Assembly (NCBI RefSeq): GCF_051903065.1
Contig: NZ_CP178438.1
Length of the DNA: 64,000 nt
From: Escherichia coli
GTDB lineage: Bacteria; Pseudomonadota; Gammaproteobacteria; Enterobacterales; Enterobacteriaceae
Reading direction: 5' to 3' (one strand)
Position 1 is the first letter of the stretch. Each line of letters begins with the position of its first letter. This document shows, piece by piece, positions 15,079 through 61,019 of this stretch. The position numbers and the translations under genes were made by a program. The notes beneath the pieces were generated by a model. It ran no database searches. It was not told where the DNA came from and saw only the letters and a list, made by a program, of their open reading frames with translations.

Positions 15079-15323
15079 GATTATCCCTTATATTTCATAC
15101 TGCGATTATTTCAATTTCAGTATACTAATGAAATGATGCCAGACTGTTTCTTAGCGCAAAAACTGCCAGATTTGGTAGGACCAAAATTTATCCACAAAGT
15201 AGTTTTGCATAACAGTTAATTGATAATAAGTAAATGCAACACGAATATATTTTCGCACAGCGTATAGCTTATGTTTATAAAAAAATGGCTGATCTTATTT
15301 CCAGTAAAAGTTATATTTAACTT

Positions 15324-15429
15324 ACTGAGAGCACAAAGTTTCCCGTGCCAACAGGGAGTGTTATAACGGTTTATTAGTCTGGAGACGGCAGACTATCCTC
15401 TTCCCGGTCCCCTATGCCGGGTTTTTTTT
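15324..15429 (+). ncRNA. gadY: GadY small RNA
   Basis: Sequence ACTGAGAGCACAAAGTTTCCCGTGCCAACAGGGAG...CCCGGTCCCCTATGCCGGGTTTTTTTT matches my recollection of GadY; intrinsic terminator at the 3' end; -10-like TATATT just upstream; opposite strand abutting the gadX stop. Confidence 0.75.
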
Positions 15430-15445
15430 ATGTCTGAGTAAAACT

Positions 15446-49744: not shown

Positions 49745-51420
49745 CTCAATTTACGCAAAATACCGCCATGCCTTCTTCCCTCTGGCAATACTGGCGCGGC
49801 CTTTCCGGCTGGAACTTCTATTTTCTGGTTAAGTTCGGCCTGTTGTGGGCGGGATATCTTAACTTCCATCCGCTCCTCAATTTGGTGTTTGCCGCGTTTC
49901 TGCTGATGCCCATTCCGCGCTACAGCCTGCATCGCTTGCGCCACTGGATTGCCCTGCCGATCGGCTTTGCTTTGTTCTGGCATGACACCTGGTTGCCTGG
50001 CCCGGAAAGCATAATGAGCCAGGGTTCGCAGGTGGCGGGGTTCAGTACCGATTATTTAATCGACCTTGTCACACGCTTTATTAACTGGCAGATGATTGGG
50101 GCCATTTTTGTTTTATTAGTGGCCTGGTTATTCCTGTCACAATGGATTCGCATTACCGTTTTTGTGGTTGCCATTCTGCTGTGGCTGAACGTACTTACCC
50201 TGGCGGGACCAAGTTTCTCCTTGTGGCCAGCCGGTCAACCGACGACCACTGTAACAACGACGGGTGGTAACGCAGCGGCAACCGTTGCGGCGACGGGTGG
50301 CGCACCGGTAGTGGGTGATATGCCCGCACAAACTGCACCGCCAACAACGGCGAACCTTAACGCCTGGCTGAATAATTTCTATAACGCGGAGGCGAAACGT
50401 AAATCGATCTTCCCGTCTTCGCTGCCCGCTGATGCTCAGCCATTTGAACTACTGGTGATTAATATTTGTTCGCTTTCCTGGTCGGATATTGAAGCCGCCG
50501 GGTTGATGTCGCATCCGCTGTGGTCGCATTTCGATATTGAGTTCAAGAACTTTAACTCCGCCACCTCCTACAGTGGCCCGGCGGCGATCCGTTTACTGCG
50601 TGCCAGCTGCGGGCAGACTTCGCACACTAATCTGTATCAACCGGCAAATAACGACTGCTATCTGTTTGATAACCTGTCGAAACTGGGCTTTACCCAGCAC
50701 CTGATGATGGGACATAACGGCCAGTTCGGCGGTTTTTTGAAAGAAGTTCGCGAAAATGGCGGCATGCAGAGCGAATTGATGGATCAAACAAATCTGCCGG
50801 TTATTTTGCTGGGCTTTGATGGTTCGCCGGTTTATGACGATACCGCCGTGCTTAACCGCTGGCTGGACGTTACCGAAAAAGATAAAAACAGCCGTAGTGC
50901 CACGTTCTACAACACGCTTCCACTGAATGACGGCAACCATTATCCGGGCGTCAGCAAAACAGCGGATTACAAAGCGCGGGCGCAGAAATTCTTTGATGAA
51001 CTGGACGCCTTCTTTACTGAACTGGAGAAATCGGGTCGTAAAGTGATGGTGGTCGTGGTGCCGGAACACGGTGGCGCGCTGAAGGGCGACAGAATGCAGG
51101 TATCTGGCCTACGTGATATCCCTAGCCCGTCTATCACCGACGTCCCCGTTGGGGTGAAATTCTTCGGCATGAAGGCACCACATCAGGGGGCACCGATTGT
51201 CATCGACCAACCGAGCAGCTTCCTGGCTATCTCCGATCTGGTGGTTCGCGTTCTTGATGGCAAGATTTTCACCGAAAACAATGTTGACTGGAAAAAACTC
51301 ACCAGTGGGTTGCCACAAACAGCACCGGTCTCCGAGAACTCAAATGCAGTAGTTATTCAATACCAGGATAAACCGTACGTTCGCCTGAACGGCGGCGACT
51401 GGGTGCCTTACCCGCAGTAA
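49741..51420 (+). CDS. bcsG: Cellulose phosphoethanolamine transferase BcsG
   Basis: 559 aa; N-terminal membrane domain, C-terminal sulfatase-like domain. Confidence 0.9.
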
Positions 51421-51425
51421 GCACG

Positions 51426-51456
51426 AAAAAGGCCGCAGAGTTTCACCTCTGCGGCC
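51426..51456 (-). terminator. Rho-independent terminator of ldr copy 1 (also ends bcsG region)
   Basis: Minus strand: GGCCGCAGAG-gtgaaa-CTCTGCGGCC followed by TTTTT. Confidence 0.6.
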
Positions 51457-51506
51457 TGATCCGGGCGCAAATTGCCATTACGGCAGCCTGACGCCCGCAT
51501 GACACG

Positions 51507-51614
51507 TTACTTCCGTTTGTTCAGCCAGTTCACGATCATACTGGCAAGAATGCCAGCAATGACCGGAGCCGCTAAATCATGCCAGAAGGCCATGCCCAGC
51601 TCTGCGAGCGTCAT
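51507..51614 (-). CDS. ldrD: Ldr-family type I toxin peptide, copy 1 (35 aa)
   Basis: MTLAELGMAFWHDLAAPVIAGILASMIVNWLNKRK; one hydrophobic helix with a basic C-terminus, as I recall for the E. coli Ldr toxin family. Confidence 0.8.
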   Translation of the reverse strand: MTLAELGMAFWHDLAAPVIAGILASMIVNWLNKRK

Positions 51615-51662
51615 ATAGCCGCCTGTGTTGTAATGACAACGTTTCGCGGCTATTCTTGTATT

Positions 51663-51728
51663 GTTTGGATGCAAGAATGGCCCCCGTGATGTTGTCAGGT
51701 GCATACCTGCAACGTGCGGGGGTTTTCT
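51663..51728 (+). ncRNA. rdlD: Rdl antisense RNA, copy 1 (approximate)
   Basis: Opposite strand about 50 nt upstream of the ldr ATG; sigma70-like promoter TTGTAA-17-TATTCT at 51628-51656; ends in hairpin CCCCCG...CGGGGG plus TTTT at 51723-51726. Boundaries inferred. Confidence 0.5.
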
Positions 51729-51908
51729 CTCTCCAGCAACCAATACCACCAGGGATTAAGCCCCCGCAACATTGCGCCTCACCGGAACCCTTCCGGCTTG
51801 CCGCTGATTCTACGACTGTTTTTCTGTTCCGGAATCCGTCACGTCTTCACTCTGTGCTGCGCATTCCGCAGAATATTATCCGCTTGCAACCGTTGCATTT
51901 TTCTTACG

Positions 51909-51939
51909 AAAAAGGCCGCAGAGTTTCACCCCTGCGGCC
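51909..51939 (-). terminator. Rho-independent terminator of ldr copy 2
   Basis: Same hairpin plus T-run as copy 1. Confidence 0.6.
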
Positions 51940-51989
51940 TGGTCCGGGCGCAAATTGCCATTACGGCAGCCTGACGCCCGCATGACACG

Positions 51990-52097
51990 TTACTTCCGCT
52001 TGTTCAGCCAGTTCACGATCATACTGGCAAGAATGTCATCAATGACCGGAGACGCTAAATCATGCCAGAAGGCCATGCCCAGCTCTGCGAGCGTCAT
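51990..52097 (-). CDS. Ldr-family toxin peptide, copy 2 (variant, 35 aa)
   Basis: MTLAELGMAFWHDLASPVIDDILASMIVNWLNKRK; differs from copies 1 and 3 at three residues (A to S, A to D, G to D) from four clustered nucleotide changes. Confidence 0.75.
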   Translation of the reverse strand: MTLAELGMAFWHDLASPVIDDILASMIVNWLNKRK

Positions 52098-52145
52098 ATA
52101 GCCGCCTGTGTTGTAATGACAACGTTTCGCGGCTATTCTTGTATT

Positions 52146-52211
52146 GTTTGGATGCAAGAATGGCCCCCGTGATGTTGTCAGGTGCATACCTGCAACGTGC
52201 GGGGGTTTTCT
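52146..52211 (+). ncRNA. Rdl antisense RNA, copy 2 (approximate)
   Basis: Same promoter and terminator-like hairpin as copy 1, shifted by one repeat unit. Confidence 0.45.
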
Positions 52212-52391
52212 CTCTCCAGCAACCAATGCCACCAGGGATTAAGCCCCCGCAACATTGCGCCTCACCGGAATCCTTCCGGCTTGACGCTGATTCTACGACT
52301 GTTTTTCTGTTCCGGAATCCGTCACGTCTTCACTCTGTGCTGCGCATTCCGCAGAATATTATCCGCTTGCAACCGTTGCATTTTTCTTACG

Positions 52392-52422
52392 AAAAAGGCC
52401 GCAGAGTTTCACCCCTGCGGCC
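52392..52422 (-). terminator. Rho-independent terminator of ldr copy 3
   Basis: Same hairpin plus T-run. Confidence 0.6.
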
Positions 52423-52472
52423 TGGTCCGGGCGCAAATTGCCATTACGGCAGCCTGACGCCCGCATGACACG

Positions 52473-52580
52473 TTACTTCCGCTTGTTCAGCCAGTTCACG
52501 ATCATACTGGCAAGAATACCAGCAATGACCGGAGCCGCTAAATCATGCCAGAAGGCCATGCCCAGCTCTGCGAGCGTCAT
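52473..52580 (-). CDS. Ldr-family toxin peptide, copy 3 (35 aa)
   Basis: Peptide identical to copy 1; the 5'-UTR region differs from copies 1 and 2. Confidence 0.8.
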   Translation of the reverse strand: MTLAELGMAFWHDLAAPVIAGILASMIVNWLNKRK

Positions 52581-52628
52581 ATAGCCGCCTGTGTTGTAAT
52601 GGCAACGTTTCGCGGCTATTCTTGAGTG

Positions 52629-52694
52629 GTCTAGGTTCAAGATTAGCCCCCGTGGTGTTGTCAGGTGCATACCTGCAACGTGCGGGGGTTTTCT
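52629..52694 (+). ncRNA. Rdl antisense RNA, copy 3 (approximate, divergent 5' part)
   Basis: Promoter and 3' hairpin conserved, but the first ~25 nt (gagtggtctaggttcaagattagccc) differ from copies 1 and 2 (gtattgtttggatgcaagaatggccc). Confidence 0.45.
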
Positions 52695-53055
52695 CTCTCC
52701 AGCAACCAATGCCACCAGGGTTAAAGCCCCCGCAACATTGCGCCTCACCGGAACCCTTCCGGCTTGCCGCTGATTTTACGATTGCTTTTTACTGTCAGCA
52801 CCCTGCAATCTTCCTCATTGCGTGATGCCTTCCAGCTTAATTTCTTAATTTGCAATAGTTGCAGTTCATATCCGGGCTGACTCCAGACTGGTAGTGAAAT
52901 GCGCAATTTTGTAGAATTGCGCCTCCTCGCGACCTCCCCAGTGAATCTGTTGCCTCATTTTTTACATACTGCGTATTCGACTTCTCCACCTGTTGCGCAA
53001 GAGAAACTGGGTTTATTCATTTTTGCGAGGCCGACTTCTTTCTGGACAGGACTTT

Positions 53056-54327
53056 ATGCAGCACAACACACTACCGAAACACGATCAGAAATTGCCGTTT
53101 ACACGCTACGACTTCGGCTGGGTTTTATTATGCATAGGCATGGCGATTGGTGCCGGAACCGTGCTGATGCCGGTACAAATTGGCTTGAAGGGAATTTGGG
53201 TATTTATTACCGCAGCGATCATTGCTTATCCTGCCACCTGGGTAGTGCAGGACATTTATTTAAAAACCCTTTCTGAAAGCGATTCCTGTAATGACTACAC
53301 CGATATTATCAGTCATTACCTGGGGAAGAACTGGGGAATTTTCCTCGGGGTTATCTACTTTTTGATGATTATCCACGGGATTTTTATCTACTCTCTCTCC
53401 GTGGTTTTCGACAGCGCCTCGTACCTGAAAACCTTCGGTTTAACCGATGCCGATCTTTCACAATCTCTACTTTATAAAGTCGCCATTTTCGCCGTACTGG
53501 TGGCGATTGCGTCTGGTGGTGAACGATTACTGTTTAAGATTTCTGGGCCAATGGTGGTGGTCAAAGTAGGGATTATTGTCGTGTTCGGTTTTGCGATGAT
53601 CCCGCACTGGAATTTCGCCAATATAACCGCCTTCCCGCAAGCCTCCGTCTTTTTCCGCGATGTCCTGCTTACCATTCCATTTTGCTTCTTTTCTGCGGTA
53701 TTTATTCAGGTACTTAACCCAATGAATATTGCCTATCGTAAACGGGAAGCAGATAAAGTACTGGCAACCCGGCTCGCGCTGCGTACCCACCGAATTAGTT
53801 ATATCACGCTCATCGCGGTGATACTGTTTTTTGCCTTTTCGTTTACCTTCTCAATTAGCCACGAAGAAGCCGTTTCTGCCTTTGAACAAAATATCTCGGC
53901 ACTGGCACTGGCCGCGCAGGTGATCCCTGGACATATCATTCATATCACCTCTACGGTGCTGAATATCTTTGCCGTACTGACCGCATTCTTTGGCATTTAT
54001 CTCGGTTTCCACGAGGCCATTAAAGGCATTATTCTCAATCTGTTAAGCCGAATTATTGATACCAAGAAAATTAACTCACGCATGCTGACTCTGGCGATCT
54101 GCGCTTTTATCGTCATTACGTTGACGATTTGGGTTTCGTTTCGTGTATCGGTGCTGGTGTTCTTTCAGTTGGGAAGCCCGTTATATGGCATTGTGTCGTG
54201 CCTCATTCCGTTTTTCCTGATCTATAAAGTCGCACAACTGGAAAAACTTCGCGGATTTAAAGCCTGGCTGATTCTGCTTTACGGCATTTTGCTATGCTTG
54301 TCGCCACTGTTGAAGCTGATTGAGTAA
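53056..54327 (+). CDS. yhjV: Amino-acid permease-like inner membrane transporter YhjV
   Basis: 423 aa from [34 protein letters not shown]; multi-pass membrane protein. Confidence 0.9.
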
Positions 54328-58454: not shown

Positions 58455-58565
58455 TGCCGGATGCGGCGTTAACGCCTTATCCGGCCTACAAAATCGTGCA
58501 AACTCAATACATTGCAGAATTTTCGTAGGCCTGATAAGCGGAGCGCATCAGGCAGTTTTGCCTTT
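58455..58565. repeat. REP/BIME element in the dppA-dppB intergenic region
   Basis: Two inverted REP units (TGCCGGATGCGGCGTTAACGCCTTATCCGGCCTAC ... GTAGGCCTGATAAGCGGAGCGCATCAGGCAG). Confidence 0.65.
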
Positions 58566-60765: not shown

Positions 60766-60853
60766 TAGGTCGAATAAGGCGTTCACGCCGCATCCGACAA
60801 TAAGTGCGGTGCCGTTGCCTGATGCGACGCTGACGCGTCTTATCAGGCCTACG
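60766..60853. repeat. REP/BIME element
   Basis: REP-like palindromes (CGAATAAGGCGTTCACGCCGCATCCGACA ... CGTCTTATCAGGCCTAC). Confidence 0.6.

Positions 60854-60942: not shown

Positions 60943-61019
<77 letters not shown>

What the first reader, a model, noticed from the sequence alone, without database searches (positions are those of the whole stretch)
52590..52700. Third ldr/rdl unit has a different Rdl 5' region and ldr leader
Promoter-like elements and the 3' hairpin are conserved in all three units, but the first ~25 nt of the predicted Rdl (antisense to the ldr leader) is replaced in copy 3. Each toxin mRNA may therefore be controlled mainly by its own cognate antisense RNA, with limited cross-talk.
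Basis: partly seen in the sequence, partly recalled or inferred. Interest (0 to 1): 0.5.

Follow-up and report, generated by a model that had tools for sequence, protein, structure and literature searches.

The report
Variable recognition tail of Rdl antitoxin RNAs
This E. coli window holds three tandem copies of the known ldr/rdl toxin–antisense RNA module. Their antisense RNAs fall into two types that differ only in the short single-stranded 5' tail, which probably decides which toxin mRNA each RNA can silence; this is a common, sensible feature of a known system, not a new one.

Summary
Between bcsG and yhjV lie three 483-bp LDR units. Each has a 35-codon ldr gene on the minus strand and an Rfam rdlD match on the plus strand. 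Units 1 and 2 encode identical Rdl RNAs. Unit 3 differs at 10 positions packed into 52625-52655, which is half of all differences in 396 nt (permutation p about 5e-5). "Replaced" overstates it: 7 of the first 27 Rdl nucleotides differ (+3, +5, +7, +9, +15, +17, +27), and 3 more lie just upstream of +1. Unit 3 is the K-12 rdlD-like copy; units 1 and 2 are the variant.

The patch falls on the unpaired 5' tail of Rdl and, on the other strand, on the loop of a covariation-supported hairpin in the ldr leader. Tail-limited pairing is predicted at -13.5 to -17.3 kcal/mol for cognate pairs and -3.0 to +1.9 for non-cognate pairs. The same patch is the divergence hotspot in 22 tandem arrays from several genera (0.24-0.29 differences per site against about 0.03 elsewhere).

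Cognate specificity is therefore plausible but untested. There would be two specificity classes here, not three. This is an ordinary member of a known family, with a testable hypothesis that parallels Sib/Ibs and Orz/Zor.

The parts
51423..51905 (.). LDR unit 1 (ldr + rdl, tail type GUUUGGAUGC)
   Evidence: Direct repeat family with 483-nt spacing; alignment A1
51906..52388 (.). LDR unit 2. Its Rdl is identical to unit 1's; its Ldr carries A16S, A20D and G21D.
52389..52871 (.). LDR unit 3, next to yhjV; positional counterpart of K-12 ldrD/rdlD
51507..51614 (-). ldr ORF of unit 1: MTLAELGMAFWHDLAAPVIAGILASMIVNWLNKRK
   Evidence: 34 of 35 residues identical to K-12 LdrD
51990..52097 (-). ldr ORF of unit 2, variant ...DLASPVIDDILA...
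   Evidence: its counterpart in strain 23CRST027 (99.7% identical locus) carries a separate protein accession
52473..52580 (-). ldr ORF of unit 3, identical in protein to unit 1
51663..51728 (+). Rdl RNA of unit 1
   Evidence: Rfam RF01813, 82.9 bits, model positions 1-66
52146..52211 (+). Rdl RNA of unit 2, identical to unit 1's
   Evidence: Rfam RF01813, 82.9 bits; sequence identity asserted
52629..52694 (+). Rdl RNA of unit 3 (K-12 rdlD-like)
   Evidence: Rfam RF01813, 89.2 bits; its start aligns with the RefSeq rdlD start at 3700136
52625..52655 (.). Divergent patch. It covers Rdl -4 to +27 and ldr mRNA -45 to -75. The equivalent stretches are 51659-51689 in unit 1 and 52142-52172 in unit 2.
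   Evidence: 10 differences in 31 nt, permutation p about 5e-5
52629..52644 (+). Unpaired 5' tail of Rdl (model positions 1-16), the proposed recognition element
   Evidence: Rfam consensus structure; minimum-energy folds and unpaired probabilities
52618..52644 (-). Hairpin in the ldr leader. Its 11-nt loop (13 nt in units 1 and 2) together with its 5' arm is the complement of the Rdl tail.
   Evidence: 84.6% of cells paired, 41 compensatory cells, 0 of 500 shuffles as high. One-sided intermediates are G·U only when read in the mRNA sense. Local fold -14.2 and -11.5 kcal/mol.
52594..52622 (+). rdl promoter-like elements: -35 TTGTAA at 52594-52599 and -10 TATTCT at 52617-52622. The same hexamers lie at 51628-51656 and 52111-52139.
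   Evidence: 8 of 12 consensus matches, below the scan threshold
52584..52616 (-). Conserved hairpin predicted to sequester the ldr Shine-Dalgarno sequence (GCCGC pairing with GCGGC)
   Evidence: RNAalifold pairs 171-175 with 202-206 are kept in 61-64 of 64 sequences; also present in the minimum-energy folds
52721..52738 (-). Start of the ldrX-like leader ORF, cut short in unit 3 by TAA at codon 6. It is intact (25 codons) in units 1 and 2, at 51695-51772 and 52178-52255.
52773..52778 (-). Probable ldr -10 hexamer: TAAAAT in unit 3, TAGAAT in units 1 and 2 (51807-51812 and 52290-52295)
   Evidence: Conserved CGTAG/AAT motif in all units, including K-12 A-D. The assignment is an inference.
52396..52423 (-). 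ldr terminator of unit 3; the same element lies at 51913-51940 and 51430-51457

Best explanation
[quoted passage not shown] Each Rdl is a 66-nt antisense RNA made of a single-stranded 5' tail of about 16 nt followed by a long terminator hairpin. The tail is complementary to the loop and 5' arm of a small conserved hairpin about 42-68 nt upstream of the ldr start codon. I propose that pairing starts between the Rdl tail and this loop, then spreads into the two long complementary hairpins, and that the resulting duplex blocks ldr translation and is cut by RNase III. Sense and antisense are copied from the same DNA, so any substitution in the patch changes both partners together and creates a new matched pair. 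The substitutions that separate unit 3 (GUCUAGGUUCAAGAUUA) from units 1 and 2 (GUUUGGAUGCAAGAAUG) would therefore make two specificity classes that recognise each other poorly: Rdl-1/2 serves ldr-1 and ldr-2, and Rdl-3 serves ldr-3. What is shown here: the anatomy, the clustering of differences, the conserved hairpin, the energy contrast, and the family-wide hotspot. What is inferred: that the tail starts the pairing, that mismatches there stop repression in vivo, and how binding upstream of the ribosome-binding site blocks translation.
For: Membership of the family is clear: Rfam rdlD matches at 82.9-89.2 bits over the full model, Ldr peptides 34 of 35 identical to K-12 LdrD, and the bcsG/yhjV context that holds ldrD/rdlD in K-12. 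The differences are clustered, 10 of 20-21 within 31 nt, p about 5e-5. The tail is unpaired in the Rfam consensus structure and in folds. The target hairpin in the ldr mRNA is supported by covariation: 41 compensatory cells, 0 of 500 shuffles reaching that, and slid controls at 20-49% paired against 84.6%. Tail-limited interaction energies with opening costs included are -14.4, -13.5 and -17.3 kcal/mol for cognate pairs, against -3.0, -0.3 and +1.9 for non-cognate pairs. Between units of one array, divergence in the patch is 0.24 per site in 10 E. coli arrays, against 0.018-0.033 elsewhere and 0.05 at ldr third codon positions. In 12 arrays from Escherichia, Klebsiella, Kluyvera, Atlantibacter and others it is 0.29 against 0.025-0.036. 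Only 3 of 52 within-array pairs share a tail. In K-12, RNase III products captured by p19 map to 3,698,166-3,698,199 (U00096.2). That corresponds to Rdl +8 to +41 if the offset to U00096.3 is 1,977 bp, a figure taken from my own knowledge; it indicates that the duplex forms in vivo across the tail-hairpin junction. Two precedents exist. Sib RNAs discriminate ibs targets through recognition domains that sit in variable regions, and about 100 nt of remaining complementarity is not enough for repression (PMC2943612). A 3-nt V1 region at the single-stranded 5' end of OrzO sets its specificity (PMC3919570).
Against: No experiment on Rdl cross-repression was found. Non-cognate pairs keep 59 of 66 complementary positions, including a perfect 39-nt run, and windows of 30 nt still give net -12 to -14 kcal/mol, so slow cross-pairing is possible. 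Rdl-1/2 can still form a 6-bp seed on ldr-3, two of its pairs being G·U. The minimum-energy and RNAalifold structures of the whole leader favour a different pairing of the UCUU arm with upstream GAGA, so the recognition hairpin may be only one of several conformers. Some arrays hold tails that differ by only 1-2 nt. Identical tails were not significantly rarer within arrays (1 of 30) than between arrays (39 of 405). Three of the ten differences lie upstream of Rdl +1 and cannot act through Rdl itself.
Confidence: 0.55

Rival explanations
1. Relaxed constraint. The patch is a loop or linker with no sequence requirement. It simply records the true age of the paralogues, while the rest of the unit is held constant by purifying selection on RNA structure or by gene conversion. 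Specificity would be a side effect at most.
For: The rest of the leader is extremely conserved across genera, more so than the ORF. A free loop would therefore stand out without any selection for diversity. Outside the patch all E. coli units are about equally similar whatever their tail type, at 4-10 differences, which fits homogenised or constrained flanks. Identical tails are not significantly rarer within arrays.
Against: Patch divergence (0.24-0.29 per site) is about five times that of ldr third codon positions (0.05). Variation is confined to particular positions (+3, +5, +7, +9, +15, +17), while G1, U2, G6 and CAAGA stay fixed. A small set of tail types recurs across genera. Even a neutral change here alters both RNAs, so a functional effect on cross-pairing follows either way.
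Confidence: 0.2
2. Full cross-talk. All Rdl RNAs repress all ldr mRNAs because the 49-nt hairpin part is almost identical, so the tail differences do not matter and the three units act as one dosage pool.
For: Non-cognate pairs share 59 of 66 complementary positions and a 39-nt perfect run. Windows of 30 nt give net -12 to -14 kcal/mol. The p19-captured duplex in K-12 lies mostly in the conserved part.
Against: Reaching that duplex means opening an Rdl hairpin that costs 22-25 kcal/mol, and the apical loop has only 4 nt, which is poor for loop-loop contact. In Sib/Ibs, about 100 nt of residual complementarity did not give repression.
Confidence: 0.15
3. A transcriptional effect. The patch spans -4 to +9 of the rdl promoter (the discriminator and initially transcribed region), so the substitutions mainly change the Rdl start site or its level, tuning the antitoxin dose per unit rather than target choice.
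For: Three of the ten differences lie upstream of +1, and four lie within +3 to +9. The -35 and -10 hexamers are conserved, so regulation would have to sit at this spot.
Against: Differences at +15, +17 and +27 lie outside that region. The compensatory pattern that preserves the ldr-mRNA hairpin points to constraint at the RNA level. This effect could also operate alongside specificity.
Confidence: 0.1

Closest known systems
E. coli K-12 ldrD/rdlD (LDR-D; Kawano et al. 2002; Rfam RF01813)
   Same: Same locus (bcsG-yhjV). The toxin is 34 of 35 identical. The layout is the same: Rdl lies antisense to ldr mRNA -114 to -49 and does not overlap the ribosome-binding site. Unit 3's Rdl differs from K-12 RdlD by 2 nt in the tail.
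   Different: There are three units here instead of one. Units 1 and 2 carry a tail type absent from K-12 (GUUUGGAUGCAAGAAUG). Unit 3 has a stop in the ldrX-like leader ORF. Arrays of 1-4 units at this site are common in other E. coli. Close relatives of both tail types (61-mers, at least 90% identical) are widespread: 3006 and 4216 of 5426 genomes.
Sib/Ibs family (Han et al. 2010, PMC2943612)
   Same: [quoted passage not shown] Discrimination of cognate targets has been shown by experiment.
   Different: Sib overlaps the whole ibs ORF and has two recognition domains, one a loop and one a junction. Rdl overlaps only the 5' UTR and has a single candidate element, its 5' tail. Specificity has not been tested for Rdl.
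OrzO/ZorO and OrzP/ZorP (Wen et al. 2014, PMC3919570)
   Same: Tandemly duplicated type I system. The single-stranded 5' end of the sRNA pairs with the toxin's 5' UTR, and a few nucleotides (V1) decide which paralogue is repressed.
   Different: Orz RNAs are encoded divergently and have only 18-19 nt of complementarity. Rdl is fully antisense over 66 nt.
hok/sok, and plasmid copy-number antisense RNAs (CopA/CopT, RNAI/RNAII)
   Same: An antisense RNA acts on a long, structured leader through a single-stranded tail or a loop. In the plasmid systems, point changes in recognition loops create new incompatibility specificities, because both partners change together (this is from my own knowledge). 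The ldrX leader-ORF model was proposed by analogy with mok/hok (PMC4147584).
   Different: The ldrX-like ORF ends 80 nt before the ldr AUG, and Rdl overlaps its 3' end rather than its start. The ORF is broken in unit 3, in K-12 ldrC and in several other units, so hok-style coupling is doubtful.

Membership tests
Ldr/Rdl type I toxin-antitoxin (LDR repeats) | 35-aa Ldr peptide with a transmembrane helix, a conserved Trp and a charged C-terminus | tested here: met
   All three ORFs encode MTLAELGMAFWHDLA..IVNWLNKRK, 34 of 35 identical to K-12 LdrD for units 1 and 3. RefSeq annotates the same ORFs as Ldr family toxins in a 99.7% identical strain.
Ldr/Rdl type I toxin-antitoxin (LDR repeats) | Rdl antisense RNA matching the rdlD covariance model | tested here: met
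   RF01813 at 82.9, 82.9 and 89.2 bits against a gathering score of 50, model positions 1-66
Ldr/Rdl type I toxin-antitoxin (LDR repeats) | Rdl encoded opposite the ldr 5' UTR, upstream of the ribosome-binding site | tested here: met
   Rdl at 52629-52694 against the ldr AUG at 52580 gives mRNA positions -114 to -49
Ldr/Rdl type I toxin-antitoxin (LDR repeats) | Ldr is toxic and Rdl neutralises it | not testable with these tools
   Shown for K-12 LdrD/RdlD according to PMC4147584; not tested for these copies
Cognate-specific multi-copy antisense antitoxins (Sib/Ibs type) | Paralogues differ mainly in the element that recognises the target | tested here: met
   10 of 20-21 differences lie in the tail/loop patch. 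The same hotspot appears in 22 arrays.
Cognate-specific multi-copy antisense antitoxins (Sib/Ibs type) | The variable element is exposed (single-stranded or in a loop) in both RNAs | tested here: met
   Rdl tail is unpaired. The mRNA loop belongs to a covariation-supported hairpin, though an alternative pairing exists.
Cognate-specific multi-copy antisense antitoxins (Sib/Ibs type) | Non-cognate antitoxin fails to repress | not testable with these tools
   Only in-silico energies are available
hok/sok-like leader-ORF coupling (ldrX model) | An intact leader ORF whose translation is blocked by the antisense RNA and is needed for toxin translation | tested here: inconclusive
   A conserved 25-codon ORF is intact in units 1 and 2, but has a stop at codon 6 in unit 3 and frameshifts in other units. 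Rdl overlaps its 3' end, not its start, and the ORF ends 80 nt before ldr.

The most novel reading that the evidence does not exclude
The Rdl 5' tail and its matching ldr-leader loop form a hypervariable specificity module that is kept diverse by selection across Enterobacteriaceae. Tandem LDR units would then be mutually independent toxin-antitoxin pairs, in the way plasmid incompatibility determinants are. A fresh duplication that shares a tail, as in units 1 and 2 here, would make one copy redundant and free its toxin to decay, which would fit the A16S/A20D/G21D variant of unit 2.
Probability: 0.4. Interest if true: 0.5.

Novelty: new member of a known kind. Interest (0 to 1): 0.33.

Why it matters
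Why chromosomes keep many near-identical type I toxin-antitoxin copies is an open question. If the Rdl tail sets specificity, each LDR unit is an independently controlled switch rather than extra dosage, and one point mutation can create a new matched pair. The three-unit array offers a natural test: two units share one antitoxin and one unit has its own. The practical consequence is modest. Rdl variants should be annotated by tail type, and K-12, with a single unit at this locus, is not representative of most E. coli.

Tried and rejected
1. The consensus promoter scan found no sigma-70 site at 9 of 12 matches or better. The rdl and ldr promoters were therefore assigned by hand from conserved hexamers and K-12 homology.

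2. Interaction energies without a length limit were uninformative about specificity, because every pair is favourable once the hairpins are opened. I replaced them with a tail-limited calculation.

3. My first guess at the register of the alternative GAGA/UCUU pairing was wrong (stem B). The RNAalifold version was tested instead.

4. The first folds of the window's Rdl RNAs were shifted by one nucleotide and were redone.

5. A YUNR U-turn motif in the target loop is present in unit 3 and K-12 D (CUAG) but absent in units 1 and 2 and in K-12 A, so I dropped it as a family feature (direct reading of the sequences).

6. Kawano 2012 (RNA Biol) and Kawano 2002 (DNA Res) could not be read. What I say about the mapped ends therefore rests on the RefSeq annotation, on Rfam and on secondary citations.

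7. I considered that Rdl binding frees the 3' arm to complete the hairpin that sequesters the Shine-Dalgarno sequence. I rejected this because that hairpin already forms in the free leader in the predicted folds.

8. The LDR matches reported on plasmids: the one I examined is a kdsA-ldr-chaA chromosomal segment carried on a 195-kb plasmid.

Full report
WHAT IS THERE.
The window is E. coli chromosome. bcsG ends at 51420 and yhjV begins near 53057. GadY and other E. coli sRNAs lie elsewhere in the window. Between the two genes are three direct repeats spaced 483 nt apart. Each holds a 35-codon ldr ORF on the minus strand (51507-51614, 51990-52097, 52473-52580) and a full-length match to Rfam RF01813 (rdlD antitoxin) on the plus strand. 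Those matches are at 51663-51728 and 52146-52211 (82.9 bits) and at 52629-52694 (89.2 bits), against a gathering score of 50.

K-12 has a single ldrD/rdlD unit at this site. Other complete E. coli genomes have one to four units, and only 3 records are at least 99% identical to this arrangement. RefSeq annotates the three ORFs as Ldr family toxins in a 99.7% identical strain.

CHECK OF THE OBSERVATION.
An in-register comparison shows 9 differences between units 1 and 2, none of them in Rdl. Unit 3 differs from units 1 and 2 at 20-21 positions in the 396 alignable nt. Ten of these lie in 52625-52655, and 20,000 permutations of the difference positions gave p of about 5e-5 for such a cluster.

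Relative to the Rdl 5' end (G52629, aligned to the RefSeq K-12 rdlD start and to model position 1 of Rfam), the differences are at -4, -3, -1, +3, +5, +7, +9, +15, +17 and +27. So 7 of the first 27 Rdl nucleotides differ, 6 of them in the first 17. The segment is heavily substituted rather than replaced.

The rdl promoter-like hexamers are identical in all units: TTGTAA, a 17-nt spacer, then TATTCT six nucleotides before +1. They match only 8 of 12 consensus positions and were not reported by the scan. The terminator hairpin is conserved.

Unit 3 is the K-12-like copy: GTCTAGGTTCAAGATTA here against GTCTAGAGTCAAGATTA in K-12. Units 1 and 2 carry GTTTGGATGCAAGAATG.

ANATOMY OF THE PATCH.
The Rfam consensus structure and the folds give Rdl an unpaired tail (positions 1-16) followed by a long terminator hairpin with a 4-nt apical loop. 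The lower-case (variable) tail positions of the Rfam consensus are 3, 5 and 7, which are three of the positions that differ here.

On the other strand, the ldr mRNA can form a small hairpin, UCUUGA-loop-UCAAGA, at 52618-52644. Its loop is 11 nt in unit 3 and 13 nt in units 1 and 2. The loop together with the 5' arm is the complement of the Rdl tail. The local folds are -14.2 and -11.5 kcal/mol.

To test this hairpin I collected 64 distinct leader sequences (from 65 full units). The units came from one scan of species-representative genomes with the 17-mer ACGTGCGGGGGTTTTCT followed by an nhmmer search of the loci. They derive from Escherichia, Citrobacter, Klebsiella, Kluyvera, Salmonella arizonae and diarizonae, Pseudocitrobacter and Atlantibacter.
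- The hairpin is paired in 84.6% of cells, against 20-49% for slid controls.
- It has 41 cells with compensatory double changes, and 0 of 500 shuffles reached that number.
- One-sided intermediates are G·U only when read in the mRNA sense. The constraint therefore acts on the ldr transcript.
- An alternative pairing of the UCUU arm with upstream GAGA is also well conserved but has fewer compensatory changes. RNAalifold and the minimum-energy folds prefer it. The hairpin may thus be one of two conformers.

PREDICTED PAIRING.
With windows up to 30 nt, every Rdl/leader combination is favourable: -24 to -28 kcal/mol for cognate pairs and -12 to -14 for non-cognate pairs. Reaching these duplexes needs 21-25 kcal/mol to open the Rdl hairpin.

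Restricting the interaction to the tail (nt 1-17), and including opening costs on both RNAs, gives a clear contrast:
- Cognate pairs: -14.4, -13.5 and -17.3 kcal/mol.
- Rdl-1/2 on ldr-3: -3.0 kcal/mol (a 6-bp seed with two G·U pairs).
- Rdl-3 on ldr-1 and ldr-2: -0.3 and +1.9 kcal/mol.

Discrimination is therefore large if, and only if, pairing must begin at the tail.

IS THIS A GENERAL FEATURE?
Across the cross-genus units, the 5' leader is more conserved than the toxin ORF. The patch (52626-52637) is a local peak of variability inside it. Columns 52678-52694 are invariant by construction, because they are the search pattern.

Tandem units within one genome nearly always carry different tails while the rest of the unit is almost identical.
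- In 10 E. coli arrays, divergence between units of an array is 0.24 per site in 52625-52645. It is 0.018-0.033 in the other segments and 0.05 at ldr third codon positions. Only one of 30 within-array pairs has identical tails, and that pair is units 1 and 2 of this window.
- In 12 arrays from other strains and genera, the figures are 0.29 against 0.025-0.036.
- Outside the patch, all E. coli units are about equally similar whatever their tail type.

Close relatives of both tail types are common in E. coli. 61-mers at least 90% identical to the unit-1/2 type occur in 3006 of 5426 genomes (exact in 14). Those matching the unit-3 type occur in 4216 genomes (exact in 367).

Related arrays read [GTTCAGG..][GTTTGGATGC..][GTCTAGGTTC..] (L066 and L072). 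The window's [GTTTGGATGC][GTTTGGATGC][GTCTAGGTTC] therefore looks like a recent re-duplication or conversion of the middle type.

Two caveats apply. The sampled arrays share ancestry. And identical tails are not significantly rarer within arrays than between them (1 of 30 against 39 of 405).

MECHANISM.
Established for K-12, from secondary sources: LdrD is toxic, and co-expressed RdlD prevents that toxicity. RdlD overlaps the 5' UTR, not the ribosome-binding site. A hok/sok-like model with a leader ORF, ldrX, has been proposed but not confirmed (PMC4147584; PMC2943612). RNase III products of the ldrD/rdlD duplex are captured by p19 at 3,698,166-3,698,199 of U00096.2. With the 1,977-bp offset to U00096.3, which I take from my own knowledge, this is Rdl +8 to +41.

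My reading, by inference: the tail contacts the leader loop, the duplex spreads into the hairpins, and translation is blocked. How it is blocked remains open.
- The ldr Shine-Dalgarno sequence is predicted to be locked in a conserved hairpin even without Rdl. Rdl probably prevents an activating step upstream.
- The conserved 25-codon ORF (MLRGL[Y/N]PWW[H/Y]WLLERENPRTLQVCT; mRNA -158 to -80) is the likely ldrX. It ends 80 nt before ldr, and Rdl overlaps its 3' end rather than its start. It is broken in unit 3 (TAA at codon 6), in K-12 ldrC and in several other units. Strict mok/hok-style coupling is therefore doubtful.

COMPARISON AND NOVELTY.
This is a member of the Ldr/Rdl family: every feature I could test was met. 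Specificity set by a short variable recognition element has been shown for Sib/Ibs and Orz/Zor. It is classical for plasmid antisense RNAs (my own knowledge). I found no paper testing it for Rdl, though the key Kawano papers could not be read.

The finding is therefore a sound and testable extension of a known principle to a known family, not a new kind of system.

VERDICT.
Interest is modest.

Noticed in passing
window 51990-52097 (- strand); nt 52036, 52039, 52052: The Ldr of unit 2 carries A16S, A20D and G21D, which places two Asp residues in the transmembrane helix and alters the PxxxG motif. It is probably an inactivated toxin, and it sits in the unit whose Rdl duplicates unit 1's. The counterpart ORF in the 99.7% identical locus of strain 23CRST027 has its own RefSeq protein accession.
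   Followed up: partly
window 52721-52738 (- strand); also 51695-51772 and 52178-52255: The conserved 25-codon leader ORF (likely ldrX) has a TAA at codon 6 in unit 3. Its run of five G (codons 3-4) is four G in K-12 ldrC and six G in some E. coli units. The +1 variants put the leader AUG in frame with ldr with no intervening stop.
   Followed up: partly
window 52581-52750, against 64 aligned units (A2): Across about eight genera, the non-coding ldr leader is more conserved than the toxin ORF. This suggests heavy constraint on RNA structure.
   Followed up: partly
window 52639-52644 against 52620-52625 or 52695-52702: In the ldr mRNA, the UCUUGA arm can pair either with the downstream UCAAGA (the hairpin that displays the Rdl target) or with the upstream GAGAG (an extension of the long hairpin). 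Both pairings are conserved, so a conformational switch is possible.
   Followed up: partly
loci L013, L019, L021, L034, L039, L049, L065 and the window: The same tail types (for example GTCTAGATGC, GTCTAGGTTC, GTTGAGGTTC) recur in Escherichia, Klebsiella, Citrobacter, Kluyvera and Pseudocitrobacter, while the flanks are genus-specific.
   Followed up: no
window 52773-52778 against 51807-51812 and 52290-52295: The probable ldr -10 hexamer is TAAAAT in unit 3 and TAGAAT in units 1 and 2. The sequence upstream of it is unrelated, because the repeat ends near 52785. The three ldr promoters may therefore differ in strength.
   Followed up: no
L074 (NZ_CP195449.1, 120638-124001): 27 LDR matches in the E. 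coli collection lie on plasmids. The one I examined is a chromosomal kdsA-ldr-chaA segment carried on a 195-kb plasmid, not a plasmid-borne LDR family.
   Followed up: partly
window 15321-15434, 9471-9542, 58490-58532, 60768-60849, 60946-61019: Other Rfam matches in the window are GadY, ES205, ES036, naRNA4 and a tRNA. This is ordinary E. coli content.
   Followed up: no
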